A stretch of DNA of 64,000 bases from Patescibacteria group bacterium (GCA_022710645.1 JAKLGL010000001.1:274712-338711); one strand, 5' to 3'. Positions 9,051-62,606 are shown, numbered from the stretch's first letter. A program made the numbers and translations. The notes: generated by a model not told the origin, from the sequence alone.

Positions 9051-9080
9051 TTTTTAATTTTCATTAAATTTTCAATCATC
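9040..9080. repeat. Left inverted-repeat arm (family B, ATTTTCAAT units) flanking a four-helix-bundle gene
   Basis: Sequence 'aattttcaatttttaattttcattaaattttcaatcatcaatttacaatttc'. Its reverse complement matches 9455-9510 and the gene-less copy at 22095-22200. Confidence 0.6.
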
Positions 9081-9483
9081 AATTTACAATTTCTTTATCA
9101 TTGCCTTTTCTGCTAGTCATGCCTATTTTTTGAAATATCATAGTTAGCTCCTGTGCTTCTGACCAGTATATCCTGAGTTCTTTTTTTAAATCTTCGTTAC
9201 AAACTGCTAACATTCTTAACCAGTGTTTTGTTTCTTGCGCTTCTTTTTTGCAAATAAATATTTTGTTTATAAAATCTTTTTTTGATGCCGCCCCATTGGC
9301 TTCCATATAATTAGCTCCCACACTAGTAGCTGATCGAATAATTTGACCAATCAAAGATTTGTTATATTCATTAATTCTTATTCTTTGACACAATTTAATA
9401 ATGTCTTCACCAAACTTTGCAGTCCTCTCTTCCAAATCATAACCAGATACCATATTTTGAAAATTAAAATATTGAAAATTCAA
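9079..9483 (-). CDS. Four-helix-bundle protein (PF05635/TIGR02436-like, '23S rRNA intervening-sequence protein' family)
   Basis: Motif ...SATSVGANYMEANGAASKKDFINKIFICKKEAQETKHWL... is typical of the family. The track ORF starts at a TTG; the probable true start is the ATG at 9453 (MVSGYDLE...). The gene is flanked by inverted repeats. Confidence 0.6.
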   Translation of the reverse strand: MNFQYFNFQNMVSGYDLEERTAKFGEDIIKLCQRIRINEYNKSLIGQIIRSATSVGANYMEANGAASKKDFINKIFICKKEAQETKHWLRMLAVCNEDLKKELRIYWSEAQELTMIFQKIGMTSRKGNDKEIVN

Positions 9484-13586: not shown

Positions 13587-13666
13587 GTATTTGTTTTTTT
13601 AGTCGCCTAAATCAATCCTAAAAATCAAATTAAACTAAAATTTTCAGGATCGCTTTGGACAATTAG

Positions 13667-13695
13667 ATTATAACACATTTTGGCTAAACTTACAA
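13667..13695 (-). promoter_or_regulatory. Sigma70-type promoter for the giant-protein operon (minus strand)
   Basis: Reverse complement reads TTGTAA-17 nt-TATAAT with an extended -10 (TGtgTTATAAT). It lies about 75 nt upstream of the start at 13586. Confidence 0.5.
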
Positions 13696-13856
13696 AATTA
13701 AAACTATCCACAGGGTTTATAAAATTAAAAAGATTGAAAAATTAAAAAATTAAAAGATTAAAGAACTAACAAAATCAACAAAACAAGCTTTGAAAAAACT
13801 GTAAAATTTATAAACCTTATAAACTATTTTTAACTAATTTTAGCTAAAATATACCC

Positions 13857-13903
13857 TTGACAAAACTGCTAAAATGTGCTATAATAATCTGTTCTTTAAC
13901 AAT
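13857..13903 (+). promoter_or_regulatory. Consensus sigma70 promoter (TTGACA-17-TATAAT, extended -10) plus conserved leader motif GTTCTTTAACAAT
   Basis: TTGACA at 13857-13862, a 17-nt spacer, TATAAT at 13880-13885, leader motif at 13891-13903, GGAG RBS at 13911, ATG at 13921. Confidence 0.65.
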
Positions 13904-13920
13904 CAAAAAAGGAGAAAGAA

Positions 13921-14160
13921 ATGGTTAATTTTGGAGAAAAGATAAATTCCAAACCGGCTGAAAAGCACAAAATCCTGCAAAACTTGCAAAAAGATACGGT
14001 AAAAGAGTTTTTTGGAAAAAAGGATGCTTTTGCCAAAAAAACCTTTTTTATCGCCATGGTGATTTTTATCACAGCGGGATTGGTCGCCTGGTTTTCCAGT
14101 TCACTGGTGCCAATAGGTATTTTCGCCTTTTTGGCATTCATGAGCACATTTCTCATTTAA
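13921..14160 (+). CDS. Small membrane protein (79 aa), unknown function
   Basis: Has its own promoter and RBS. Contains two hydrophobic helices. Confidence 0.4.
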   Translation: MVNFGEKINSKPAEKHKILQNLQKDTVKEFFGKKDAFAKKTFFIAMVIFITAGLVAWFSSSLVPIGIFAFLAFMSTFLI

Positions 14161-14178
14161 AAAGGGGGAGGAAAAAAG

Positions 14179-15042
14179 ATGAACGAAAGATATGAAAAGA
14201 TCAGAGAGGAAATCAGAAATTTCAAACTGTGTGTCGGAAAAGAAAAATATCCGACCATGACAGTACATGAATACACCGGATTTGAAAACATTTTGAAGGA
14301 GATGGAAAAGGAGAAAGAGATAACGGACAGTGCGGTTAATATACTGGAACAGAACTGGCTCAAAACTCTTCTGTTTAATCTCGGAAAAGAGATTGAGCGG
14401 TATGAAACCGCTCTGGATATTGAATATGTTCAGAACTTGAACGCGGAAAAGTATGTCTCTCTCAACAGAGAGGACTACTACCGCGTAGTAGAAGATTACA
14501 ATCGTCTGGTTGAAAAAGCGCATCTGAGGCGAGAAGAGCTCAACGCTCTGGCGAAAAGCTGGAGAGATGACGAGGAAGTAAAAGCCTTCGACAAAGGTGA
14601 GTTGAAAGTCGCATGGTCCTACCGCATGAAGGAAGAAATGCGAGAACAAAAACGAGAAGCCACTGAAAAAAATTACCAAGAGAGATGGGCCGCGATATGG
14701 CACGATATATTCGCGGTAATCTGTTTCGTGGTAGGAATCTGTCTAGGCTTTTTCACAAAAAGTCTCATTACTACCTTGTTTGTCACTTTCACTTCGCTAT
14801 TGGTTATGAAGGAGGCTTTTGAAACCTCCAATATTACCGTAGCGCCACGCAGTGCCAACGCTTATCTGTTTTCCTACACTGCCTATTCGGTCGTCGTGGG
14901 TGTGGGCAGTTCCCTTTGGACATTATACCTTTCTCTTTTCAGCAAGGTTGGTGGAAACTCGTTGATAGTTTTTGTCATCACAATGCTGGCGCTTTTATTG
15001 ATCCTATCTTCTTACAATAAGAAGATATTCAAAAAAGCATAG
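14179..15042 (+). CDS. Membrane protein: N-terminal cytoplasmic coiled-coil domain plus 3-4 C-terminal TM helices, unknown function
   Basis: GGAGG RBS upstream. Terminator hairpin at about 15054-15085. Confidence 0.5.
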   Translation: MNERYEKIREEIRNFKLCVGKEKYPTMTVHEYTGFENILKEMEKEKEITDSAVNILEQNWLKTLLFNLGKEIERYETALDIEYVQNLNAEKYVSLNREDYYRVVEDYNRLVEKAHLRREELNALAKSWRDDEEVKAFDKGELKVAWSYRMKEEMREQKREATEKNYQERWAAIWHDIFAVICFVVGICLGFFTKSLITTLFVTFTSLLVMKEAFETSNITVAPRSANAYLFSYTAYSVVVGVGSSLWTLYLSLFSKVGGNSLIVFVITMLALLLILSSYNKKIFKKA

Positions 15043-15053
15043 TCGTTCTTTTC

Positions 15054-15085
15054 ACAGAGACCCTTTCAGAGGGTCTCTTTTTATT
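15054..15085 (+). terminator. Rho-independent terminator
   Basis: Hairpin GAGACCCT-TTCAG-AGGGTCTC followed by a T-run. Confidence 0.65.
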
Positions 15086-15095
15086 TAAAAAAATC

Positions 15096-15147
15096 TTGAC
15101 CAAATTTAAAAATTAAGATAAACTAACACGATTGGTTCTTTAACAAT
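15096..15147 (+). promoter_or_regulatory. Sigma70 promoter (TTGACC-17-TAAACT) plus conserved leader CACGATTGGTTCTTTAACAAT
   Basis: -35 at 15096-15101, -10 at 15119-15124, leader at 15125-15147, AAGGAGG RBS at 15160, ATG at 15172. Confidence 0.6.
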
Positions 15148-15171
15148 TTTTACAACATAAAGGAGGTTATC

Positions 15172-16395
15172 ATGGAAGACTGGCAAAGAAACGGCATGGT
15201 GAAATGGGACGCCTGGCAATACATGTTTGTCGGGGAGGCTTTCAAATTTCAGGCTAATGCCCTTGATGAATCGTTGAGTAAACATCGTGAGCTGGTTTGT
15301 CGGGAATATTTAAAAAATACCGATCGACTCATTGCCAGCCAAGAAACTGTTTATGAAATCATTGACGGAATCGTAGAAAAAATCAGCAACAAACAAAACC
15401 CGTCAGCTATCATTGCAAACAGTAACAGCCAATTGTCAGAAACTTTTATTCGCGGCACCAGTCAAGTTTTATCTAGTTTATCTTTTCTGCAGGAGGATAT
15501 TAACAACGGATTTTCCAATATCAGTGATAAACTTGAAGACATCAGTGACGCAATTGGTAATTTAGGAGCTTCTTTTAACTGGGGTGTAGACAGATTGGTT
15601 TGGCATCTGAGCGACATCAAAAAAACCATTCAAATGCCGATTGACAATAAAGCGCTAAACTATCGTATGCGTGGCATTAATGCTTATCAAAACGGTTGGT
15701 TTGACGAAGCCCTGAAAGAATTTATCCAGGCTAACTCTTACTACGAATACGATTTCATCACTCATCAGTACTTGGGAGATCTTTATCTTTACTACAAGAA
15801 AGATCTGAATAGAGCGCTTGAACATTTTCGCCGCGCGGCGAAATATTCAATGGTAAAAAACGCTTCGGTAGAACACAAAAAAATCAGTAGCTGGGCAGAA
15901 CTGCACATCGGTCTTGTCTTCTACAAAAAAAATGATTTCGAAGAAGCAGCTCAAGCCGCTTATCGTGCCGCCACCAAAAACCCTAGTCCGGAAGCTATGT
16001 ATCAGATAGGACACTATATGTCTTTGACCAAACAAAAGGATGAGAGATTAAAAAATATTCTCAGTGCTTTCGAGCAAGCCATCCGCGAAGATCCTGTTTA
16101 TTTTCTCAAAATAGACATGGATCATAATCTTTTTGAAAGAGACCTTTATAAAATCAGAAATGAAATGAAAGCACTCAAAGAATCGCTTTTTAGAGAAGAA
16201 CGGGAAAAAGCTTGGCAAAAAATCTCTAAACTCAAGCATATTTTTGAATCGACCAAATGGCATTATAACGCCAGCACAATAACCGAGATAGATAAAATGA
16301 AAGAAGACCTGCGTTTAGTGGAAGAAATGTTCAAAAACCGCCAAAGTTATCTTGATTTCAGAATAATCCAAGAAATATGCGGAAAAAACATATAA
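15172..16395 (+). CDS. TPR-repeat protein (407 aa), cytoplasmic
   Basis: Several 34-aa TPR-like units (for example ALNYRMRGINAYQNGWFDEALKEFIQA and WAELHIGLVFYKKNDFEEAAQAAYRAA). Confidence 0.55.
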   Translation: MEDWQRNGMVKWDAWQYMFVGEAFKFQANALDESLSKHRELVCREYLKNTDRLIASQETVYEIIDGIVEKISNKQNPSAIIANSNSQLSETFIRGTSQVLSSLSFLQEDINNGFSNISDKLEDISDAIGNLGASFNWGVDRLVWHLSDIKKTIQMPIDNKALNYRMRGINAYQNGWFDEALKEFIQANSYYEYDFITHQYLGDLYLYYKKDLNRALEHFRRAAKYSMVKNASVEHKKISSWAELHIGLVFYKKNDFEEAAQAAYRAATKNPSPEAMYQIGHYMSLTKQKDERLKNILSAFEQAIREDPVYFLKIDMDHNLFERDLYKIRNEMKALKESLFREEREKAWQKISKLKHIFESTKWHYNASTITEIDKMKEDLRLVEEMFKNRQSYLDFRIIQEICGKNI

Positions 16396-16423
16396 AAAAC
16401 TAAACATGTTGTGAAGCGTTAAT

Positions 16424-16452
16424 GAGCGAGTCTTATATGACTCGCTTTTTTA
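16424..16452 (+). terminator. Rho-independent terminator
   Basis: Hairpin GAGCGAGTC-TTATAT-GACTCGCTC followed by TTTTTTA. Confidence 0.65.
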
Positions 16453-16470
16453 TTTAATAATTTACGACTC

Positions 16471-16523
16471 TTGACTGAACTTCAAAATTAAGCTATATTA
16501 GCACGATTAGTTCTTTAACAATT
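16471..16523 (+). promoter_or_regulatory. Sigma70 promoter (TTGACT-17-TATATT) plus conserved leader CACGATTAGTTCTTTAACAAT
   Basis: -35 at 16471-16476, -10 at 16494-16499, leader at 16500-16523. Confidence 0.6.
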
Positions 16524-16530
16524 TTATATA

Positions 16531-17166
16531 ATGGAGATTAAAATGAATGGTAAAGGCAGAGAGACTCCGCTTTCAGAACGCTTAGAAAATTTAAAAAAAT
16601 TATCGGAATCAGAGAGAGCAAAGGATGAAGCTGAGGCTAAGAGAAAAAAAGAAGAAGAGGAAAGAAAAAGAAAAGAGGAGGAAGAAAGAAAAAAAGAAGA
16701 AGAGGAAAGAAAAAAACGAAGACAACTATCTGAAGAATACAAAAAACTAGCAGAAGAAAAAGAGAGAAAAGAAAAGATAGAAGAAGAAGAAAGAAAAAGA
16801 ATTTATCATGAAATCATCGATATTCATAAAACCAGGAACATTGCTGCCGTTGTTTTAAGTATTATTGGTACGATTATCGCTCTTTCTGTTGCGGGTATGG
16901 ATGAAAGTAACTCAATGAAAGAAATGTTTGGACTTTTGATAGTCGGGGGCCTGGTGGCTATTGTATTTCCTCCAGCCATCGTTGTTGCCGGAATCGCCCT
17001 TATCATTATTCTGTTAGTCTTAGCAATAATCATAATTCCTGTTGTTTTGGGAGTGGTAATTATCATATTCATGATAGCGGAAATTTATTGTAATGCAAAT
17101 TATGGCTGGGGTTATCGAAAATACATACAATATCATTCAGCCAAAAATAATTATTACGACGATTAA
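16531..17166 (+). CDS. Membrane protein with an E/R/K-rich single-alpha-helix-like N-terminal region and 3 C-terminal TM helices
   Basis: EEEERKRKEEEERKKEEEERKK low-complexity charged helix followed by hydrophobic helices. The likely true start is the ATG at 16545, 7 nt after GGAG. Terminator at 17194-17222. Confidence 0.5.
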   Translation: MEIKMNGKGRETPLSERLENLKKLSESERAKDEAEAKRKKEEEERKRKEEEERKKEEEERKKRRQLSEEYKKLAEEKERKEKIEEEERKRIYHEIIDIHKTRNIAAVVLSIIGTIIALSVAGMDESNSMKEMFGLLIVGGLVAIVFPPAIVVAGIALIIILLVLAIIIIPVVLGVVIIIFMIAEIYCNANYGWGYRKYIQYHSAKNNYYDD

Positions 17167-17193
17167 TCTCATTTGACTAAAAAGTTTTGTTAT

Positions 17194-17222
17194 TAAGCGG
17201 GCTAATTAAGCTCGCTTTTTTA
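17194..17222 (+). terminator. Rho-independent terminator
   Basis: Hairpin AAGCGGGC-TAATTA-GCTCGCTT (one G.U pair) followed by a T-run. The sequence is similar to the terminator at 16424. Confidence 0.6.
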
Positions 17223-17259
17223 TTTAATTTAAGCTGTTTTTAAACCCTATTTTCCCCTC

Positions 17260-17288
17260 TTGACATCTTCTTTCTCATATAATATAAT
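17260..17288 (+). promoter_or_regulatory. Consensus sigma70 promoter (TTGACA-17-TATAAT)
   Basis: TTGACA at 17260-17265, TATAAT at 17283-17288. It drives the DHH gene at 17335. Confidence 0.6.
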
Positions 17289-17334
17289 GATTGGTTCCTG
17301 AATAACCGGAGAGAGAAGGGACGAAAAGAAAGAT

Positions 17335-18533: not shown

Positions 18534-18884
18534 TTAGTCTTTTAATGCTTTTATTAATCCTGAAAGCAACCTCGAAATTTCTATCGATAACTGATAACAA
18601 TTATCGTAATCACACTGCTGGATAATCTTTAAACTGAAAGCTAAATCAAGCATTGACCTCACTTCACCACAAGAACCCTTGGCAATAAACAGAAATTTTT
18701 TAAACTCCTTATCCCCTCTTCTTTCAAAACCTTCAGCAATATTATTCATTATAGAAACGCTTGCTCGTTGAATTTGGTCTTTAAACGAATAATCTCGTGA
18801 TGGTTCAAAAATCTTAAATATTATTATTGTTATTTGTTTGGCTTTTTGCCAAGCAATAATATCTTCAAACTTTTCGATTTTCAT
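18534..18884 (-). CDS. Four-helix-bundle protein (PF05635/TIGR02436 family)
   Basis: Motif ...ASVSIMNNIAEGFERRGDKEFKKFLFIAKGSCGEVRSML... is canonical for the family. Confidence 0.7.
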   Translation of the reverse strand: MKIEKFEDIIAWQKAKQITIIIFKIFEPSRDYSFKDQIQRASVSIMNNIAEGFERRGDKEFKKFLFIAKGSCGEVRSMLDLAFSLKIIQQCDYDNCYQLSIEISRLLSGLIKALKD

Positions 18885-18945
18885 AAATTTAACTTTACGG
18901 ACTTTAAAGACTTTACGGACTTTATAGACTCACACTAGACTTCTT
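18885..18945. repeat. Right inverted-repeat arm (family A)
   Basis: Sequence 'aactttacggactttaaagactttacggactttatagactc'. Confidence 0.6.
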
Positions 18946-20507
18946 CCATTCATCTCTTCGGGTTGGGGTAAGCCCAACAGTCTCAAAACAGTCGGCGCAA
19001 CGTCGGCCAACATCCCGACCGGAGAAAGTAAACTCAAATCTCCTTCAGGAGCATCTCCGCCGGGTCCAGCCTGTCCCATCAAATCTTTACTCACAATATA
19101 AATCGGAACCGGATTGGTGGAATGTTCTTTATCCATGCCGCCGGTTTGTAAATTGAAAATTTCTTCAGCATTTCCATGGTCGGAAGTTATAACCAAAGCG
19201 CCATTTTTCAATAAAACTTTATCAACTATTTCACCTAAACACTCGTCAATGTTTTCCGCTGATTTTACCGTGGCTTCTAAGTTTCCAGTGTGTCCAACCA
19301 TATCGCCGTTGGCAAAATTAACAGCGATGAAGCCATACTTTTCTTCCTCCACCGCTTCAAGAACTTTTTTGGTTATTTCTTTTGCCGCCATCTCCGGAAC
19401 TTCGTCAAAAGAAGAAACTTTGGGAGAAACAGCTATAAACCTATCTTCTCCGGGAAACGGTTCTTCAACAGTTCCGTTCAAAAAAAATGTTATATGCGCA
19501 TATTTTTGGGTTTCCGCGACATGCAATTGTTTTAACCCGGCTTTACTAACCACTTCAGCCAAAACATTTCGCAAAACCACGGGTTTATAAGCGACTTCAA
19601 CCGGCAATTCCTTTTCATATTCGGTCATGGTAACAAAAAATAAATTATTTATTTTTTTTCGCGGAAATTTTTCAAATGCCGGCAAAACAAAAGCCTTGGT
19701 CAATTGTCTGGCTCTGTCCGGACGAAAATTAAAAAATATAACAGCGTCATTTTCCTCTATCAAGCCGACAGGTTTATCTTTTTCTGTGATCAATGTCGGG
19801 AAAAACTCCTCATCATAATTTTTTTCCGCATACGAAGAATCAATAGCTTTGAGAGGGTCTTCGTTTTTTCTTTCAGATATCCCTTCGGTCAACATTTTAT
19901 AAGTTTTTTCCGTTCGATCCCATTGATTATCTCTGTCCATAGCCCAATAACGCCCGGTCAAACTGGCTATTTTTCCTATTTTTAATTCTTTGATCTGCGC
20001 TTGTAATTTTTCCGTAAAATATTTCCCGGAATTATAAATAGAATCTCTACCATCCAAAAAAGCATGGATAAACACATCGTTTTTTAACCCGTTTTGTTTA
20101 GCTATTTTTAACAAAGCAAACAGATGTTCTTCATTACTATGAACTTTTCCACCTATCAATCCCATGATATGTAATTTTGATTTATTTTTTTTCACATGTT
20201 CCATCGCTTGCAAAAAAACAGGGTTATTCAAAAATTTCCCCGTTTCTATTTCGTTATCTATGCGAGGTAGAGTTTGATAATATACCCGCCCGGCTCCGAT
20301 ATTCAAATGTCCAACTTCGCTATTCCCCATTTCTCCAAAACTCAAACCGACTTCCGTACCGGAAGCATGCAAAGTCGCAACAGGATAATTTTTACCCAAA
20401 CGATCCAGAACCGGAGTCTTTGCCAAAGTAATGGCGTTTCCCGGGCCTTTTGGCGCCACCCCCCAACCATCCAATATAATCAATACAACTGGTCTGTATT
20501 TATACAT
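18930..20507 (-). CDS. gpmI: 2,3-bisphosphoglycerate-independent phosphoglycerate mutase (iPGM)
   Basis: Motifs DGWG, GNSEVGH (catalytic Ser), TSDHGNAEE. Length is 525 aa. Confidence 0.85.
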   Translation of the reverse strand: MYKYRPVVLIILDGWGVAPKGPGNAITLAKTPVLDRLGKNYPVATLHASGTEVGLSFGEMGNSEVGHLNIGAGRVYYQTLPRIDNEIETGKFLNNPVFLQAMEHVKKNKSKLHIMGLIGGKVHSNEEHLFALLKIAKQNGLKNDVFIHAFLDGRDSIYNSGKYFTEKLQAQIKELKIGKIASLTGRYWAMDRDNQWDRTEKTYKMLTEGISERKNEDPLKAIDSSYAEKNYDEEFFPTLITEKDKPVGLIEENDAVIFFNFRPDRARQLTKAFVLPAFEKFPRKKINNLFFVTMTEYEKELPVEVAYKPVVLRNVLAEVVSKAGLKQLHVAETQKYAHITFFLNGTVEEPFPGEDRFIAVSPKVSSFDEVPEMAAKEITKKVLEAVEEEKYGFIAVNFANGDMVGHTGNLEATVKSAENIDECLGEIVDKVLLKNGALVITSDHGNAEEIFNLQTGGMDKEHSTNPVPIYIVSKDLMGQAGPGGDAPEGDLSLLSPVGMLADVAPTVLRLLGLPQPEEMNGRSLV

Positions 20508-20529
20508 AAAAAGTTAAAAATTAAAATTT

Positions 20530-22113
20530 TTAAATCAGGCTTTTCCCTGTCATTTCTTTGGGTTTTTTCAAATTAAATAATTTTAAAATTGTCGGCGCAA
20601 CATCGGCTAATCTTCCTTTTTTTAACTGTTTTTTCTTTTTATAAAAATCATTGTTCATCAATATCAGAGGTACTGGGTTGGTAGAATGTTCGGTATCGAC
20701 TTCACCTGTTTTGAGATTTATCATCGCTTCCACATTTCCATGGTCAGCTGTCACCAACACGGTACAATCTTTTTTCAAAGCCGTTTTTATCAATCTATCA
20801 ACTTCCGTATCCACGGTTTTGACGGCCATAACTCCGGCAATCAAATCTCCGGTATGACCTACCATGTCCGGGTTTGGATAATTGACGCAAATAAAATCAT
20901 ATTCTTTTTTTTCCAAATTTTTTATCAAAATATCAGTCATTTGTTTTGAACTCATTTGCGGACACGCGACATAACTGTCCACAACTTTTGATTCCACTTT
21001 TATCCAACGATCATCACAAAAATGTTTGGCGTAACCTCCGTTAAAAAAGTAAGTTACATGGGCGAATTTTTCGGTTTCGGATATATAAAGTTGTTTCATC
21101 GGACAAAGTACTTGGGTCAAACTATTAACAACATCGCGAGAAGGAAAAGCCGTCAATACACCGGGGAGATCGGGTCCAAAATCGGTCATGGCTACAAAAC
21201 GGGTGTTTTTGGGAACGCGAGAACGACGAAAAGAATCGGGATTAACTTTTTCAAAATCAGGTTGTACAAAAGCTTTGGTTAATTGCCTGGCTCTGTCAGA
21301 TCTTAAGTTAAAGAAAAAAATCGCATCATTATCGTTTATCTTGGCAATAGCTTTATTTTTTTCAACAATCACTGTCGGTACTATAAATTCATCTGTCTCT
21401 CCCGAATTGTAAGCCAGAGTCAAAGCATCTTCCGCCGATTCAGCGGTTCGGCAACTTTTACATTCAACCAAAGCATCGTAGGCCTTTTTTATCCTTTCCC
21501 AATTTTTACCCCTATCCATACCGTAAAACCTTCCCAAAACAGTAGCGATTTTTTCATTACCATGAAATTTTTCTTTTAATAATTTCAAATGTTTTGGAGC
21601 GTCATGTTGCCCGGAATCACGACCGTCGGTAAAAAGATGCAGATAAACTTTTTGAATTTTTTCTTGATAAAAGTAATCCAATAACGCGTATAAATGCTCC
21701 GGACAAGAATGGGCGCTGTTATGGTTTGATAATAATCCTATCAAATGAACGGCGGTATTATATTTTTTTATATGATGAACAGCTTGATCAAAAGCCGGAT
21801 TTTTGAAAAAAGTCCCATCTTTGATAGCATCGGAAATATATACCGCATCTTGTTTTACCACACGTCCCGCTCCCAAATTCATATGCCCGGCTTCACTATT
21901 ACCTTCTTCATCTTTAAAAAGACCTACTGCTTCTCCACTAGCTTCAAGTTTAGTATTGGGAAAATCTTTGAGCCAACGAAAATAATTCGGCGCATTCTCC
22001 GGAGTTATCGGATTGCCTTTATTTTTTGGACTAGCTATTCCCCAGCCATCCATAATGACGAGCATGACTGGGTTCTTTTTATTAGTCGGCATACAGAAAA
22101 AACAAATTTTCAA
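20530..22113 (-). CDS. gpmI: Second, divergent iPGM paralog arranged in tandem
   Basis: Motifs MDGWG, GNSEAGH, TADHGNVEA. Length is 527 aa. Only 22 nt separate it from the downstream paralog. The track start is a TTG; the probable ATG is at 22092 (MPTNKKNPVMLVIMDGWG). Confidence 0.8.
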   Translation of the reverse strand: MKICFFCMPTNKKNPVMLVIMDGWGIASPKNKGNPITPENAPNYFRWLKDFPNTKLEASGEAVGLFKDEEGNSEAGHMNLGAGRVVKQDAVYISDAIKDGTFFKNPAFDQAVHHIKKYNTAVHLIGLLSNHNSAHSCPEHLYALLDYFYQEKIQKVYLHLFTDGRDSGQHDAPKHLKLLKEKFHGNEKIATVLGRFYGMDRGKNWERIKKAYDALVECKSCRTAESAEDALTLAYNSGETDEFIVPTVIVEKNKAIAKINDNDAIFFFNLRSDRARQLTKAFVQPDFEKVNPDSFRRSRVPKNTRFVAMTDFGPDLPGVLTAFPSRDVVNSLTQVLCPMKQLYISETEKFAHVTYFFNGGYAKHFCDDRWIKVESKVVDSYVACPQMSSKQMTDILIKNLEKKEYDFICVNYPNPDMVGHTGDLIAGVMAVKTVDTEVDRLIKTALKKDCTVLVTADHGNVEAMINLKTGEVDTEHSTNPVPLILMNNDFYKKKKQLKKGRLADVAPTILKLFNLKKPKEMTGKSLI

Positions 22114-46425: not shown

Positions 46426-47681
46426 ATTTTTCTTTTACTTCTATTAAATTTTATCGCAAACCGATGCGCTTCATCGCGCACGCGGATGAGTAATTCTTGA
46501 TGACCGAAAACCCAAGCCACAAATTCCGGATTTTTTTCACCTAAGATAAATTCGTTTTTCTTTCGCGCCGGTCCTTTGGCAATACCCACAACCGGAAGAG
46601 AAATGTTTTTTTCTTCCAAAATAGTTTTTACCGCATTCACTTGTCCTCTGCCCCCGTCAATCAATAATAAATCCGGTCTCCCCCATTCACTGTGCGTAAA
46701 ACGACGAGAAATAATTTCTTTGAGACAGTCTACATCGCTCTGACCGACAACGCCTTTGATATTAAATTTTTTATATCCGCTTTTTTTGGGGATCCCGTTT
46801 TGGAATAATACCAAACTCCCCACTTTGTCGCTACTGCCCAAATTGGAAATATCATAACCCTCAATTCGCGAATATTTTTCTTTGAGTTTTTTACCCGCGT
46901 CTTTTTCCAAAAATAATTCGTCTTCAAAAAAACTACGATTGATGAGCGTGATGTCTTGAATTTTTTTCAATTGATAAAGTTGATTTCGCAAAAGCGTCGC
47001 TTGTTCAAAATTTTCTTTTTCCGATGCTTGTTTCATCTTTTTTTCAAAATCTCGCATCACTTGTTTTTTCTGACCGAGCAAAAACAAAGTTAGAGGTTTG
47101 ATAACTCTGCTTTCATATTCCTCTGCGCTGATTTCACCCGTACATACGCCCAAACATTGATCCAATTGATAATAAAAACAAGGCTTGTCGCTGTTTGGTT
47201 CGCAGTCCGACCAAAAAAACATTTTTCGCAATACTGTCATTGCTTCTTTGGTATTGAGTCCCGGATACGGACCGAAAATCGCTTTTATTTTACCTTTATC
47301 AATTTTACTTAATTCATGCTGACGTAAAGATTGCAACTTTGGAAATCTGTCTTTGGTCAAATATAGATAGTTCCAACTTTTGTCGTCCTTACCCAAAACA
47401 TTATATTTGGGATTAAACTTTTTGATATAATCGGCCTCCAAAATAATCGCTTCCAAAACCGACTCGGTTTCCACCCAAGCGATATCCTCTACTTGATAAA
47501 TCATTTCTTCTATCGGACGAGGATTTCTTTGTTTTTGCCAATAACTTTTTACTCGTTGTTTTAACGAGGTGGCCTTGCCAACATAAAGCAAAGCGTTGTT
47601 TGCGCCATAAAACAAATAAACTCCGGGGTTATCGGGTAAATTGGCTAATTTTAGAGATATTTTTGACTCGACTCTTGACAT
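46422..47681 (-). CDS. uvrC: Excinuclease ABC subunit C, short form lacking the C-terminal (HhH)2 domain
   Basis: GIY-YIG (PGVYLFYG...LYVGKA). C-terminal endonuclease region (RIEGYDISN...RDEAHRFAI). Length is 419 aa. Confidence 0.75.
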   Translation of the reverse strand: MSRVESKISLKLANLPDNPGVYLFYGANNALLYVGKATSLKQRVKSYWQKQRNPRPIEEMIYQVEDIAWVETESVLEAIILEADYIKKFNPKYNVLGKDDKSWNYLYLTKDRFPKLQSLRQHELSKIDKGKIKAIFGPYPGLNTKEAMTVLRKMFFWSDCEPNSDKPCFYYQLDQCLGVCTGEISAEEYESRVIKPLTLFLLGQKKQVMRDFEKKMKQASEKENFEQATLLRNQLYQLKKIQDITLINRSFFEDELFLEKDAGKKLKEKYSRIEGYDISNLGSSDKVGSLVLFQNGIPKKSGYKKFNIKGVVGQSDVDCLKEIISRRFTHSEWGRPDLLLIDGGRGQVNAVKTILEEKNISLPVVGIAKGPARKKNEFILGEKNPEFVAWVFGHQELLIRVRDEAHRFAIKFNRSKRKI

Positions 47682-47703
47682 TTTAGCTAAAATATGCTAT
47701 TAT
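47675..47703 (+). promoter_or_regulatory. Consensus sigma70 promoter (TTGACA-17-TATTAT, extended -10)
   Basis: Shares the spacer core GCTAAAATATGCTA with the promoters at 13857 and 48764. Its -35 overlaps the uvrC start codon on the opposite strand. Confidence 0.55.
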
Positions 47704-47757
47704 ATTCTGTTATAGATCTTTATAAATTTGTTTCCCTGAATAAGGGAGGAGGAAGTT

Positions 47758-48792: not shown

Positions 48793-48824
48793 TCTTTGTT
48801 GTTCCTTAAAATTTTAACTGCTTT

Positions 48825-53007: not shown

Positions 53008-53547
53008 TTATTCAAGCAACCATCCTGAAAATCCTTTAAAGATTTTGCTCAGAAAAACCAAGCAATCTTTAAAAAATTCTTTTCTAAAAATGGTTAACAG
53101 AATTAGAAACAGTGACTCAATGCTTAAAAAAACAAAAAGGGCAACGGTAACACTAGAGTAAGTGGCAATAGAAATACTCATCTGAAAGCCAAAAAATATC
53201 GAAAACGAAAAACTTATCAAAAATAACAAGCCAAAAATAAAGCCTATATCCGTTTCTATTTTTCTGAAATCTTGTAATCGGTCGAGAGTCTTAGTAGATA
53301 CAATGATAGTACAGTATAACAATGGTCCTGCAAATAAATCCCACCATCTGGTTATGCTGAATGACAAATCATAATAAGCATCAGAAAAAAAATAAATACG
53401 ATTTGTAGTTGGTACACTGCCTTTGGTAAAGAAATATATCCCCCAATAAATCCCAATCGGAACTGAAAATGCCAAAAAGAATTTAAAAAAAACCTTTGTT
53501 AATCTTTTCATTTTAATCTCCGGTCGTATTTGGCCCGACTCCGGCAC
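53008..53547 (-). CDS. Membrane protein (179 aa, about 5 TM), unknown
   Basis: Hydrophobic profile only. Confidence 0.4.
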   Translation of the reverse strand: MPESGQIRPEIKMKRLTKVFFKFFLAFSVPIGIYWGIYFFTKGSVPTTNRIYFFSDAYYDLSFSITRWWDLFAGPLLYCTIIVSTKTLDRLQDFRKIETDIGFIFGLLFLISFSFSIFFGFQMSISIATYSSVTVALFVFLSIESLFLILLTIFRKEFFKDCLVFLSKIFKGFSGWLLE

Positions 53548-53686
53548 TATTTCAATAAATTGTAAGGAACATAAACTAACTGCACATTATAGCACATTTT
53601 AGCCTTTTTGTCAAGATTTAAATGTGGCTAATTTAAGCCATTTTTCTAAACAAAAAACCGCCGTTTTTGGCGATTTTACTATTTTT

Positions 53687-60786: not shown

Positions 60787-60881
60787 AGATAATAAAAAAT
60801 AAAACAAAAAAACTTCGCTATTACGGCGAAGTTTTTTAAATAAAAAAGACGGGTTTTAACCGTCTTAAAAATATTATAGAA

Positions 60882-61634
60882 CTAAGCACTGGCGGTTTTT
60901 CCGCCTGATATTTCAACTTTTTCAAGATAAAGTCCGGTTTTGAACACGCTCGCCGGTTCAAAGTTCGGATCTTTATTCAAACAGAGATCCAATTGTTTCA
61001 AACAAGATTCACTATCCCCCATCTGGTGAAGAATAACAGCGTAATAATAACGCAGCATCAAATAGTGAGGAAAACGAACCAAGATATTTTCAGCATAAGC
61101 GCGAGCCTCTGTTAAACTTTTCATCCGAACAACAATCGCGGCATGGAAAAAAGGATCTTCAGCAAACAAGAGTCCTTGTTTACTATATTTGACCACTTGT
61201 TCTTCTTTTTCAAGAAGAACGCAACACCCAACAGCCAATTTTGCAATCTCGACTTTCGTCTGATTGTCGGAAAACTGATGTCTCAAAGCCGCATCAAAAT
61301 GCTTCAGAGCCTTTTCTGGCTCATTGCGTTGATACAATAAATTCCCGATATCAAAATGGATATTGTGTCGAACAAACATTTCCGGTATCCTCACTAACAA
61401 AAGACACTGCTCCAGATCTGAAAGGGTTTGGTCGATTTTTTTCTGAAATCTGAATGCCAAACTTCTACCAAGAAAAGCTTGAACAGCCATACCAACACTA
61501 GCTTCTTCTTTGGAAAAAGCTTCGATAATTTTACCAAAGAACCGTTCTGCGGTGATAAATTCCTTTTTGTCAATACACCCATAACCTTGTTGAAGATTTT
61601 CAAAACATTTGTTGTCGTCCATGGCTATCCCCAT
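60882..61634 (-). CDS. TPR-like helical-repeat protein
   Basis: Helical-repeat pattern only. Confidence 0.45.
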   Translation of the reverse strand: MGIAMDDNKCFENLQQGYGCIDKKEFITAERFFGKIIEAFSKEEASVGMAVQAFLGRSLAFRFQKKIDQTLSDLEQCLLLVRIPEMFVRHNIHFDIGNLLYQRNEPEKALKHFDAALRHQFSDNQTKVEIAKLAVGCCVLLEKEEQVVKYSKQGLLFAEDPFFHAAIVVRMKSLTEARAYAENILVRFPHYLMLRYYYAVILHQMGDSESCLKQLDLCLNKDPNFEPASVFKTGLYLEKVEISGGKTASA

Positions 61635-61839
61635 TAAAGAATGTTTTTAAGGAACTACGATAGCGCATAATATCACAAAATAAAATAATGTCAATCATCA
61701 AACAAGTTTTTTGGCTTTATTTAGCTATAAAAACAAGTGTATATTTACCTTGACTAATCTCTAACTTTATGCTAATATACTTAGCGTAAATCGGCTAACA
61801 GGCCGTTTTTAAATTCACCCGGTTAATAATTAAAAATCT

Positions 61840-62060: not shown

Positions 62061-62606
62061 ATGGCCAAACAAACAATGAATCTTGGTCGCCGCTGGTATG
62101 TACTGCATACTTATAGCGGTTATGAAGAAAATGTAAAACACAATTTGGAACAAAGAATCGCTTCTTTTGACATGCAGGATAAAATTTTCAATATTTTGGT
62201 ACCAAAAGAAAAGAAAATAAAAATCAAAAACGGCAAACGCACTACTGTGGAAGAAAAAATCTTTCCAGGTTATGTACTTTGCGAGATGATTGTTACCGAT
62301 GATTCTTGGTATGTAGTTCGCAACACTCCTAATGTTACCGGCTTTGTCGGTTCAGGTACAACCCCGACTCCGATAGATCAAAAAGAAATAGAAGGTCTGA
62401 TGAAAAGAGTTATGGCCGAACATGCACAACAAAAAATAGATATGGAAGTCAATGACATCGTTCGCATAGTAGACGGGCCTTTCAAAAATTTTGAAGGTAA
62501 AGTCAGTCATGTTGACGAGGAACGTGGCAAAATAAAAGTTATGGTTACCATGTTTGGTCGTGAAACTCCGGTGGAATTGGATGCCTTACAAGCAAAAAAG
62601 ATTTAA
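62061..62606 (+). CDS. nusG: Transcription termination/antitermination factor NusG
   Basis: RWYVLHTYSGYE NGN domain. C-terminal KOW. Confidence 0.9.
   Translation: MAKQTMNLGRRWYVLHTYSGYEENVKHNLEQRIASFDMQDKIFNILVPKEKKIKIKNGKRTTVEEKIFPGYVLCEMIVTDDSWYVVRNTPNVTGFVGSGTTPTPIDQKEIEGLMKRVMAEHAQQKIDMEVNDIVRIVDGPFKNFEGKVSHVDEERGKIKVMVTMFGRETPVELDALQAKKI

What the first reader, a model, noticed from the sequence alone, without database searches (positions are those of the whole stretch)
13857..17222. Cluster of four consecutive orphan genes, each with its own duplicated promoter-leader cassette containing GTTCTTTAACAAT
Seen: the genes at 13921, 15172 and 16531 are each preceded by a near-consensus promoter followed immediately (about +5 to +25) by the conserved leader (A/G)CACGATTRGTTCTTTAACAAT. 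The first copy reads AATCTGTTCTTTAACAAT. The three 50-55-bp modules are alignable end to end. Two of the three terminators are also near-duplicates. The products are a 79-aa 2-TM protein, a coiled-coil plus 4-TM protein, a TPR protein and an ER/K single-alpha-helix plus 3-TM protein. None matches a known family, and they sit divergently from the giant-protein operon. Inference: a co-regulated set of monocistronic units, in which the conserved +1-proximal box could be an operator for a common repressor or a shared 5'-UTR element. It is a candidate uncharacterised membrane-associated system.
Basis: seen in the sequence. Interest (0 to 1): 0.65.

Follow-up and report, generated by a model that had tools for sequence, protein, structure and literature searches.

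The report
BoxA-type leaders on orphan gene cassettes
The repeated leader in front of these orphan membrane-protein genes of an uncultured Magasanikbacteria (CPR) bacterium matches BoxA, the RNA signal that loads the NusB/S10 elongation factors on ribosomal RNA transcripts, so the genes are probably controlled through the transcription-elongation machinery rather than by a new repressor.

Summary
GTTCTTTAACAAT occurs exactly three times in the window (13891, 15135, 16510, + strand; none expected). Each copy lies 5-10 nt after a sigma-70-type -10 box and 17-24 nt before a start codon. There are three cassettes for four genes, because the 79-aa and 287-aa genes form one operon.

The box is a perfect match to the published BoxA consensus GYTCTTTAANA, the NusB-NusE binding site, and differs at one base from the E. 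coli rRNA-leader BoxA. The same promoter-plus-box layout precedes 16S rRNA, tRNA arrays and tmRNA in other uncultured bacteria.

In this window all six matches to a relaxed box, GTTC[CT]TTA[AC]NA, are promoter-proximal and in the sense orientation. The box is kept in relatives: perfect upstream of unit 1 in 5 of 6 species, and more variable upstream of the TPR and ER/K genes.

The four proteins are true orphans. The conserved core is a TPR protein paired with an ER/K-helix membrane protein.

Best reading (about 0.6): these are BoxA Nus-factor loading sites on mRNA leaders, most likely acting as in suhB (repression). This is a new member of a known kind.

The parts
13857..13885 (+). Unit 1 promoter: TTGACA, 17-nt spacer with TG extension, TATAAT
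   Evidence: Consensus scan scores it 12/12. It is conserved in species B, C, F, G and H.
13891..13903 (+). BoxA-type box 1, GTTCTTTAACAAT. It starts 5 nt after the -10 and ends 5 nt before the Shine-Dalgarno sequence AAGGAG (13909-13914).
   Evidence: Exact copy that matches GYTCTTTAANA. It is perfect in 5 of 6 species; species H has GTTCTTTACAA.
13921..14160 (+). Gene 1: 79-aa protein with two C-terminal hydrophobic segments, no known family
   Evidence: Orthologs are the C 78-aa and L320 83-aa proteins.
14179..15042 (+). Gene 2: 287-aa protein with a charged helical N-terminal half and a hydrophobic C-terminal half. It is in the same operon as gene 1.
   Evidence: An 18-nt gap separates it from gene 1, with no promoter. 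Homologs are 25-53% identical, with paralogs in B and C.
15056..15083 (+). Intrinsic terminator of unit 1
   Evidence: A 10-bp stem followed by a T tract.
15096..15124 (+). Unit 2 promoter: TTGACC-17-TAAACT
   Evidence: 9/12. The whole cassette is 44-47/53 identical to the unit 2 cassettes of B, C and D.
15125..15147 (+). Unit 2 leader AACACGATTG followed by BoxA-type box 2, GTTCTTTAACAAT (15135-15147)
   Evidence: ACGATTGGTTCTTTAACAAT is 20/20 identical in species D, whose TPR protein is only 55% identical.
15172..16395 (+). Gene 3: 407-aa soluble TPR protein. The N-terminal 155 residues are helical and of unknown fold, TPR repeats span about 160-320, and the C-terminus has long helices.
   Evidence: The family is very narrow: 6 clusters among 5.8 billion proteins, and 8 hits among 1.84 billion representatives.
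16424..16457 (+). Intrinsic terminator of unit 2
   Evidence: The 3' arm and tail CTCGCTTTTTTATTTAA are shared with the unit 3 terminator.
16471..16499 (+). Unit 3 promoter: TTGACT-17-TATATT
   Evidence: 10/12.
16500..16522 (+). Unit 3 leader AGCACGATTA followed by BoxA-type box 3, GTTCTTTAACAAT (16510-16522)
16531..17166 (+). Gene 4: ER/K-rich helix followed by a hydrophobic C-terminal half, 211 aa. The likely true start is ATG 16543, giving 207 aa.
   Evidence: Orthologs occur in B, C, D and E and share the N-terminal motif LSxRLxxxxxLSxxER.
17195..17227 (+). Intrinsic terminator of unit 3
17260..17307 (+). Promoter and separate conserved leader (GATTGGTTCCTGAATAACC) of the DHH/NrnA-like gene. 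It resembles the boxes but is not a consensus BoxA.
   Evidence: The diverged form is conserved in species A, B, E, G and H.
48801..48811 (+). Variant box GTTCCTTAAAA, 8 nt after TACAAT of promoter 48764, ahead of a ~79-aa orphan gene (ATG 48837)
53560..53570 (-). Variant box GTTCCTTACAA after promoter 53614(-), ahead of the membrane orphan gene 53008..53547
61645..61655 (-). Variant box GTTCCTTAAAA after promoter 61694(-), ahead of a second TPR protein gene (60882..61634)
   Evidence: The terminator tail CTTTTTTATTTAA at 60848(-) is shared with units 2 and 3.

Best explanation
The conserved 13-mer is a BoxA element: an RNA signal at the very 5' end of each transcript, about +1 to +20, that is bound by the NusB-NusE(S10) heterodimer. 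That dimer, together with NusG and NusA, converts RNA polymerase into a Nus-modified elongation complex.

**Layout.** Each unit is a strong sigma-70-type promoter, a BoxA, a Shine-Dalgarno sequence 5-12 nt further on, one or two genes, and an intrinsic terminator. Every unit therefore reloads the factors independently.

**Shown here:** sequence identity with BoxA, promoter-proximal sense-strand placement, conservation in relatives, and the same architecture in front of stable-RNA genes elsewhere.

**Inferred: the outcome.** The boxes sit next to the ribosome-binding site of short units, as in E. coli suhB, where the BoxA is 6 nt from the SD. The 13-kb giant operon next door has no box. I therefore favour suhB-like control: the Nus complex loops the leader to the polymerase, hinders 30S binding and lowers expression. 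That would tie these lineage-specific envelope/TPR proteins to the pool of free NusB/S10, and hence to ribosome synthesis.

The other possible outcome is protection of these transcripts from Rho. It is less likely but not excluded.
For: 1. **Consensus match.** All three copies match the published BoxA consensus GYTCTTTAANA exactly (PMC5725501). They differ at one base, the permitted Y, from the E. coli rrn leader GCTCTTTAACAATTT. I verified that sequence as present about 7 times per genome, about 130 nt upstream of 16S.
2. **rRNA context of the extended sequence.** Among 82 hits in 185,579 species genomes, the exact 18-mer GATTRGTTCTTTAACAAT lies, in sense orientation, in rRNA operons of Paenalcaligenes (188 nt before 16S), Sinimarinibacterium, Colwellia and Alteromonadaceae (16S-23S spacers), and a Pyrinomonadaceae MAG.
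3. **Same architecture before stable RNAs.** CTTGAC-N28-38-box precedes 16S rRNA (L252: box 8 nt after TATAAT, 16S starting about 105 nt after the box; L315), tRNA arrays (L259, L326, L221, L290) and tmRNA (L321, L278) in metagenomic contigs. The nearest named homolog of L252's neighbouring gene is from Ca. Woesebacteria (36% identity).
4. **Placement in the window.** All six matches to GTTC[CT]TTA[AC]NA on either strand lie within 15 nt downstream of a TTGAC-type promoter's -10 box and in the sense orientation. Shuffles give 1.0 matches in total and 0 promoter-proximal. The spacing varies (5-13 nt), as expected for an RNA element and not for a core-promoter element. Promoters of rpsB, prfA, secE-nusG and the giant operon lack the box.
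5. **Conservation.** Unit 1 is perfect in A, B, C, F and G. The TPR-gene box is perfect in A, D and E even where the promoter has diverged (E). Species E also has the C variant GCTCTTTAAC, which is the allowed Y position. The A-to-G change in species B corresponds to a position where a purine swap is tolerated structurally (PMC3177189).
6. **Trans factors and precedent.** nusG is present in the window. BoxA elements within 50 nt of start codons of non-rRNA genes are documented and functional (suhB, a ParE-like toxin; PMC5725501), as are those before CRISPR arrays (PMC7665894).
Against: 1. The organism's own rRNA leader and spacer could not be reached. There is no rRNA in the window or within 10 kb either side, so it is not shown that this lineage uses this BoxA sequence.
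2. nusB, rpsJ, nusA and rho were not seen. Whether this CPR lineage has Rho is unknown.
3. Some orthologous boxes carry changes that inactivate BoxA in E. coli: species B unit 3 GTTATTTAACA (C4A), species B and C unit 2 GTTCATT (T5A), and species C unit 3 GTTCTTTTTAT. Constraint is therefore uneven.
4. Between close species the box is no better conserved than the rest of the cassette, including the -35/-10 spacer. Whole-cassette selection or recent duplication explains part of the signal.
5. Six boxes in 64 kb is far denser than the 0-7 per genome reported for gamma-proteobacteria. That could mean a different, more general promoter-associated function.
6. There are no expression data, so transcription start sites are predicted only.
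Confidence: 0.6

Rival explanations
1. The box is a DNA operator. A lineage-specific transcription factor binds the +1 to +20 region of these promoters and co-represses or co-activates a regulon of envelope and TPR genes.
For: - The position just downstream of the -10 box is classic for repressors.
- The full cassette, including the spacer, is conserved between species.
- Units 2 and 3 contain ATTG-N9-CAAT, and unit 1 contains TGTT-N4-AACA.
- The element marks lineage-specific genes and not housekeeping genes.
Against: - The dyads are short and differ between copies; unit 1 lacks ATTG...CAAT.
- All 6 copies have the same orientation relative to transcription.
- No protein in or next to the cluster has a recognisable DNA-binding domain.
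- The sequence is identical to an RNA signal found in rRNA, tRNA and tmRNA leaders across phyla, which a private operator would not be expected to be.
Confidence: 0.15
2. The box is simply part of a duplicated strong-promoter module, possibly copied from a stable-RNA promoter. It acts, if at all, at the level of initiation or promoter escape, through its initially transcribed sequence or a sigma-dependent pause at the -10-like AACAAT. No Nus factors are involved.
For: - Units 2 and 3 are 44/53 identical paralogous cassettes.
- Terminator tails are also shared, which suggests duplication of whole units.
- The consensus scan sees TTAACA...TAAAAT as promoter-like.
- Boxes decay in some orthologs.
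Against: - The distance from the -10 box varies from 5 to 13 nt.
- The box survives where the promoter has diverged (species E).
- The box is identical in cassettes that are otherwise unrelated (unit 1 versus unit 2).
- The match to the 11-position BoxA consensus would have to be coincidence.
Confidence: 0.12
3. The pyrimidine-rich box acts in cis on translation. It either pairs with the purine-rich Shine-Dalgarno region as an anti-SD mimic or binds another RNA-binding protein such as S1 or a cold-shock protein.
For: In unit 1 the minimum-free-energy fold pairs UUCUUU with AAAGGA of the SD. The box is 5-12 nt from the SD in all three units.
Against: - The predicted structures are weak (-6.6 to -9.2 kcal/mol over 70-80 nt).
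- The pairing partner differs between units.
- The box is about 40-47% unpaired in the ensemble.
- This reading does not explain the same box before untranslated RNAs.
Confidence: 0.08

Closest known systems
BoxA of rRNA operon leaders and spacers (the rrn antitermination complex: NusB, NusE/S10, NusA, NusG, SuhB, S4)
   Same: The core sequence is the same: GTTCTTTAACAAT here against GCTCTTTAACAAT in E. coli. It is on the sense strand, in the transcribed leader, downstream of a strong promoter. The same promoter-proximal arrangement occurs before 16S rRNA in L252.
   Different: Here it heads short protein-coding units that end in intrinsic terminators. It starts within about 10 nt of the predicted transcription start. 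No boxB- or boxC-like partners were identified. Binding and antitermination are untested.
BoxA in the 5' UTR of suhB and other mRNAs (Baniulyte et al. 2017, PMC5725501)
   Same: It is a perfect GYTCTTTAANA within 50 nt of a start codon and only a few nt from the Shine-Dalgarno sequence (6 nt in suhB, 5-12 nt here). The targets are protein-coding and monocistronic.
   Different: suhB encodes a Nus-complex component, so its control is autoregulation. Here the targets are orphan membrane and TPR proteins. There are three boxes within 2.7 kb and six box-like leaders in 64 kb, against 0-7 per genome. The phylum differs (CPR), and its Rho status is unknown.
BoxA upstream of CRISPR arrays (Stringer et al. 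2020, PMC7665894)
   Same: BoxA has been recruited outside rRNA, it is phylogenetically widespread, and it was identified by the same consensus logic.
   Different: Those elements protect long untranslated transcripts from Rho. Here the transcripts are short and translated.
Phage lambda nut sites (boxA plus boxB, with N protein)
   Same: A BoxA-type NusB/E site that modifies the elongation complex at the start of a transcription unit.
   Different: No boxB hairpin and no N-like protein is present, and the locus is chromosomal and syntenic in relatives.

Membership tests
BoxA (NusB-NusE binding RNA element) | Sequence matches the consensus GYTCTTTAANA (E. coli rrn: UGCUCUUUAACAA) | tested here: met
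   Match is 11/11 in all three window copies. The E. coli leader sequence was verified. Of 16 orthologous or paralogous cassette boxes in 8 species, 11 are perfect.
BoxA (NusB-NusE binding RNA element) | Lies in the transcribed region, on the sense strand, downstream of a promoter | tested here: met
   The box lies 5-10 nt after predicted -10 boxes. All 6 relaxed matches in the window are promoter-proximal and sense, against 0 in shuffles. Transcription starts are predicted, not measured.
BoxA (NusB-NusE binding RNA element) | The same element is present in the organism's own rRNA leader and/or 16S-23S spacer | not testable with these tools
   There is no rRNA in the window or in 10-kb flanks. 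Collection scans were capped and did not return this genome's rRNA locus. Indirect support only: the same architecture precedes 16S in L252, a possibly CPR contig.
BoxA (NusB-NusE binding RNA element) | The genome encodes the trans factors NusB, NusE (S10), NusA and NusG | tested here: inconclusive
   nusG is at 62061..62606. nusB, rpsJ and nusA are not in the 64 kb plus flanks.
BoxA (NusB-NusE binding RNA element) | Specific binding by the NusB-NusE heterodimer, and box-dependent change in termination or translation | not testable with these tools
   Needs biochemistry or reporter assays.
BoxA (NusB-NusE binding RNA element) | The box is accessible as single-stranded RNA | tested here: inconclusive
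   No strong structure is predicted. Mean P(unpaired) over the box is 0.38-0.47.
BoxA (NusB-NusE binding RNA element) | Purifying selection on the box across species | tested here: inconclusive
   Selection is strong for unit 1 (5 of 6 species perfect) and for the TPR unit in A, D and E. Inactivating-type changes occur in B and C units 2 and 3.
Transcription-factor operator | Dyad or direct-repeat symmetry shared by all copies | tested here: not met
   ATTG-N9-CAAT occurs only in units 2 and 3. Unit 1 and the variant boxes lack it.
Transcription-factor operator | A cognate DNA-binding protein is encoded in or near the regulon | tested here: not met
   No DNA-binding domain was found in the cluster or in its neighbours in Pfam or NCBIfam. 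The N-terminal domain of the TPR protein is modelled as long helices at low confidence.
TPR-containing proteins (gene 3 only) | Tandem 34-residue helix-turn-helix repeats | tested here: met
   The profile hits consensus TPR structures at E = 3e-16. The AlphaFold model is confident over residues 160-320, and Foldseek finds only generic TPR matches. This gives no functional subfamily.

The most novel reading that the evidence does not exclude
In this CPR lineage BoxA-like leaders may not be confined to rRNA and one or two autoregulated genes. They may be a genome-wide promoter-proximal signal, extrapolating to dozens of copies per ~1-Mb genome, that marks lineage-specific envelope and TPR genes. 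That would put a large accessory regulon under direct control of the Nus elongation machinery and so couple surface remodelling to ribosome synthesis. This would be a much broader regulatory use of BoxA than in any studied bacterium.
Probability: 0.2. Interest if true: 0.7.

Novelty: new member of a known kind. Interest (0 to 1): 0.5.

Why it matters
Nus-factor/BoxA control was long regarded as an rRNA and phage speciality. Only a few mRNA targets are known, and all are in proteobacteria. A CPR bacterium in which several orphan envelope-protein units each start with a canonical BoxA would extend this control to a deep, uncultured lineage and to a new class of genes. It also gives a concrete, testable handle on gene regulation in organisms with almost no known regulators: a 12-nt RNA, two conserved proteins, and a simple reporter design.

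The result also removes the need to postulate a new repressor system. In addition it singles out a conserved two-gene module, a TPR protein plus an ER/K-helix membrane anchor, as the real core of the 'orphan cluster'.

Tried and rejected
1. **Rfam and tRNA scan of the window.** Nothing was found, so the element is not a known structured RNA family.
2. **Reaching the organism's rRNA operon.**
   - The genome scan with the 18-mer did not return this species.
   - Extending the window by 10 kb on each side gave only tRNA-Ile and tRNA-Leu, with no box upstream.
3. **Fourth copy at the DHH gene.** Rejected as BoxA. It has 2 mismatches and is conserved in that diverged form.
4. **Minus-strand near-match at 13766** (GTTCTTTAATC) in the divergent intergenic region. 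It is not conserved in B, C, G or H, so it is chance. The giant operon's promoter has no box.
5. **Function of the proteins.**
   - Pfam, NCBIfam, PADLOC and PHROGs gave nothing above threshold.
   - The AlphaFold model of the TPR protein has mean pLDDT 64 and only generic TPR fold matches.
   - An exhaustive HMMER search with its N-terminal domain found 8 proteins in 1.84 billion.
6. **Hairpin or anti-SD idea for the leader.** The predicted structures are too weak and inconsistent between units.
7. **Literature.** Searches found no paper on BoxA, NusB or Rho in CPR/Patescibacteria.

Full report
**1. What is in the sequence**

The region 13857-17227 (+ strand) holds three promoter-to-terminator units.

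| Unit | Promoter | Box (5'-3') | Ribosome-binding site | Genes | Terminator |
|---|---|---|---|---|---|
| 1 | TTGACA-17(TG)-TATAAT, 13857-13885 | aatct-GTTCTTTAACAAT, 13891-13903 | AAGGAG | 79 aa (13921-14160), then 18 nt later 287 aa (14179-15042) | 15056-15078 |
| 2 | TTGACC-17-TAAACT, 15096-15124 | aacacgattg-GTTCTTTAACAAT, 15135-15147 | AAGGAGG | 407-aa TPR protein (15172-16395) | 16424-16447 |
| 3 | TTGACT-17-TATATT, 16471-16499 | agcacgatta-GTTCTTTAACAAT, 16510-16522 | GGAG | ER/K-rich membrane protein (16531 or, more likely, 16543 to 17166) | 17195-17217 |

- The 13-mer occurs exactly three times in 64 kb, against zero in shuffles.
- There are therefore three cassettes for four genes.
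- Units 2 and 3 are alignable end to end (44/53 identical). Unit 1 has a shorter spacing between the -10 box and the box.
- The terminators of units 2 and 3 share an identical 17-nt 3' arm and tail.

**2. Identity of the box**

- GTTCTTTAACA is a perfect match to GYTCTTTAANA. That is the BoxA consensus Baniulyte et al. used to find Nus-factor targets within 50 nt of start codons (PMC5725501).
- It differs only at the permitted Y position from the E. coli rrn leader GCTCTTTAACAATTTATCAG. I confirmed that this sequence is present at a median of 7 places per E. coli genome and lies about 130 nt upstream of a 16S gene.
- BoxA RNA is the binding site of the NusB-NusE(S10) heterodimer (PMC3177189).

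**3. Independent support from public sequence**

*Species-representative genomes.* A scan for the extended 18-mer GATTRGTTCTTTAACAAT gave 82 hits. Many are chance hits in coding sequence. Rfam shows that several lie in rRNA operons in the sense orientation:
- 188 nt upstream of 16S in a Paenalcaligenes MAG (L207);
- in the 16S-23S spacer of Sinimarinibacterium (L141, L162) and of Colwellia and an Alteromonadaceae assembly (L156, L166, L179);
- between 23S and 5S in a Pyrinomonadaceae MAG (L132).

It returned the same promoter-plus-box architecture in front of:
- 16S rRNA: L252, with the box 8 nt after TATAAT and 16S starting about 105 nt after the box; and L315;
- tRNA arrays: L259, L326, L221, L290/L305;
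- tmRNA: L321, L278.

The gene next to the L252 rRNA promoter has its best named homolog in Ca. Woesebacteria (36% identity). L252 may therefore itself be from a CPR organism, but this is weak evidence.

The same scan also found the architecture in front of SD-plus-ATG of diverse, mostly hydrophobic, unannotated proteins in other contigs.

**4. Distribution inside the window**

I relaxed the box to GTTC[CT]TTA[AC]NA. The C variant is the Aquifex-type position discussed in PMC3177189. This gives six matches on both strands. All six lie within 15 nt downstream of the -10 box of a TTGAC-type promoter and in the sense orientation. Shuffles give 1.0 matches and none promoter-proximal.

The three extra copies head:
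- a ~79-aa orphan (48801);
- a multi-TM orphan (53570, - strand);
- a second TPR protein (61655, - strand), whose terminator also carries the CTTTTTTATTTAA tail.

Other points:
- Promoters of rpsB, prfA, secE-nusG and the divergent 13-kb giant-protein operon have no box.
- Spacing from the -10 box varies from 5 to 13 nt.
- Fixed orientation with variable spacing fits an RNA-level signal better than a core-promoter element or a symmetric operator.

**5. Source and relatives**

The window comes from a Candidatus Magasanikbacteria MAG (GCA_035454185.1; JGI 3300010429).

| Species | Loci | Relation to the window | Arrangement |
|---|---|---|---|
| B | L006 | TPR 80% identical | Same synteny: giant operon, then divergent small membrane genes, TPR, ER/K, DHH, iPGM |
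| C | L009/L010 | TPR 64% identical | Same synteny |
| D | L174, L214-216 | TPR 55% identical | Only TPR + ER/K, as one operon, downstream of cspA |
| E | L213 | TPR 55% identical | Small gene + ER/K, then TPR, then DHH |
| F | L320 | Close to C | Unit 1 cassette |
| G, H | L342, L343 | 287-aa protein 53% identical | Only unit 1, then DHH |
| Distant lineage | L344 | Remote TPR homolog | TPR + ER/K pair, without any box |

Boxes in these species:
- **Unit 1:** perfect in A, B, C, F and G; GTTCTTTACAA in H.
- **TPR unit:** perfect in A, D and E; GTTCATTGACA in B; GTTCATTAACA in C.
- **ER/K unit:** perfect in A; GTTATTTAACA in B; GTTCTTTTTAT in C; GCTCTTTAACC in E.

Conservation is therefore real but uneven. 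Some variants correspond to changes that inactivate BoxA in E. coli (C4A).

**6. The proteins**

- All four lack hits above threshold in Pfam, NCBIfam, PADLOC and PHROGs.
- The TPR region of gene 3 is genuine. The model is confident only for residues 160-320 and matches only generic TPR folds.
- The family is extremely narrow.
- The small membrane proteins evolve fast and duplicate (25-53% identity).
- The ER/K proteins share an N-terminal motif, LSxRLxxxxxLSxxER.
- The conserved functional core is the pair of TPR protein and ER/K-helix membrane anchor. I cannot assign its function. A membrane-tethered scaffold is the plain reading.

**7. Mechanism**

*Shown:* a canonical BoxA sequence sits at the 5' end of each predicted transcript, next to the ribosome-binding site.

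*Inferred:* NusB-S10 binds it and, with NusG (present at 62061-62606) and NusA, modifies the elongation complex.

For BoxA placed close to an SD, the experimentally documented outcome is repression of translation followed by Rho termination. In suhB the BoxA is 6 nt from the SD, and the effect persists with up to 100 nt of spacing. The long giant operon lacks a box while the short, terminator-bounded units have one. For both reasons I favour suhB-like negative control over processive antitermination. Both remain open.

**8. Rivals**

- A DNA operator.
- A duplicated promoter module acting only at initiation.
- A cis anti-SD element.

Each is weakened by the cross-phylum identity with BoxA, the orientation bias, the variable spacing and the weak predicted structures. 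None is excluded without the rRNA leader of this organism or binding data.

**9. Verdict**

- This is a new member of a known kind in an unstudied phylum.
- It is of moderate interest. A less likely but more interesting reading is that BoxA control is used genome-wide in this lineage.

Noticed in passing
window 17283-17307; L006, L213, L342, L343 upstream of the DHH gene; window 47675-47757: The DHH/NrnA-like gene has its own strongly conserved leader, TATAAT-ATAATGATTGGTTCCTGAA, in five species. A similar TTTCCCTGAATAAGGGAGG follows the promoter at 47675, before an 89-aa gene. This may be a second recurrent leader motif that can form a small hairpin next to the ribosome-binding site.
   Followed up: partly
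window 48801-48811 (+), 53570-53560 (-), 61655-61645 (-): Three variant boxes (GTTCCTTAAAA twice, GTTCCTTACAA once) sit directly after strong promoters of a 79-aa orphan, a multi-TM orphan and a second TPR protein. Together with the three canonical boxes, they are the only matches to the relaxed pattern in the window.
   Followed up: partly
L344:4001-5626; L215:1869-3507; L213:317-1938: The TPR protein is paired with a short ER/K-rich, C-terminally membrane-anchored protein even in a distant lineage (L344, no box) and at unrelated genomic sites. This two-gene module, not the four-gene cluster, is the conserved unit.
   Followed up: partly
P0006 / L217:741-2438: A 30%-identical homolog of the TPR protein, from a high-GC contig, carries a C-terminal ribosomal L7/L12 domain (PF00542). 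That hints at a link to translation factors.
   Followed up: no
window 13587-13720 (- strand); L006, L010, L342, L343 equivalents: The promoter of the divergent giant-protein operon is conserved. It has an upstream CCCTGTGGATAG motif and no box. Species H (L343) has three tandem ~36-nt repeats (cctgcctgcagggtacgcaagcgaagcttctagtag) in this intergenic region.
   Followed up: no
L221, L290/L305, L321/L278, L259, L326: In AT-rich metagenomic contigs a consensus promoter plus GTTCTTTAACAAT directly precedes long tRNA arrays and tmRNA genes. Their origin, whether bacterium or large phage, was not determined.
   Followed up: no
L174 (CAYRYH010000012.1): This MAG is labelled 'uncultured Gammaproteobacteria'. 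It nevertheless carries the Magasanikbacteria-type TPR/ER-K module with an identical 20-nt leader and is AT-rich, so the taxonomic label looks doubtful.
   Followed up: no
window 18930-22113 (-): Two tandem paralogous cofactor-independent phosphoglycerate mutase genes (525 and 527 aa) lie next to enolase, PGK and GAPDH genes. This is conserved in the relatives.
   Followed up: no
window 9079-9483 (-) and 18534-18884 (-): Two '23S rRNA intervening sequence protein' (PF05635) genes flank the cluster region, and neither is inside an rRNA gene. The one at 18534 is absent from species B, C, G and H.
   Followed up: no
window 16531-16545: Public gene calls disagree on the start of the ER/K gene (211 aa versus 207 aa). 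GGAG at 16533-16536 favours ATG 16543.
   Followed up: yes
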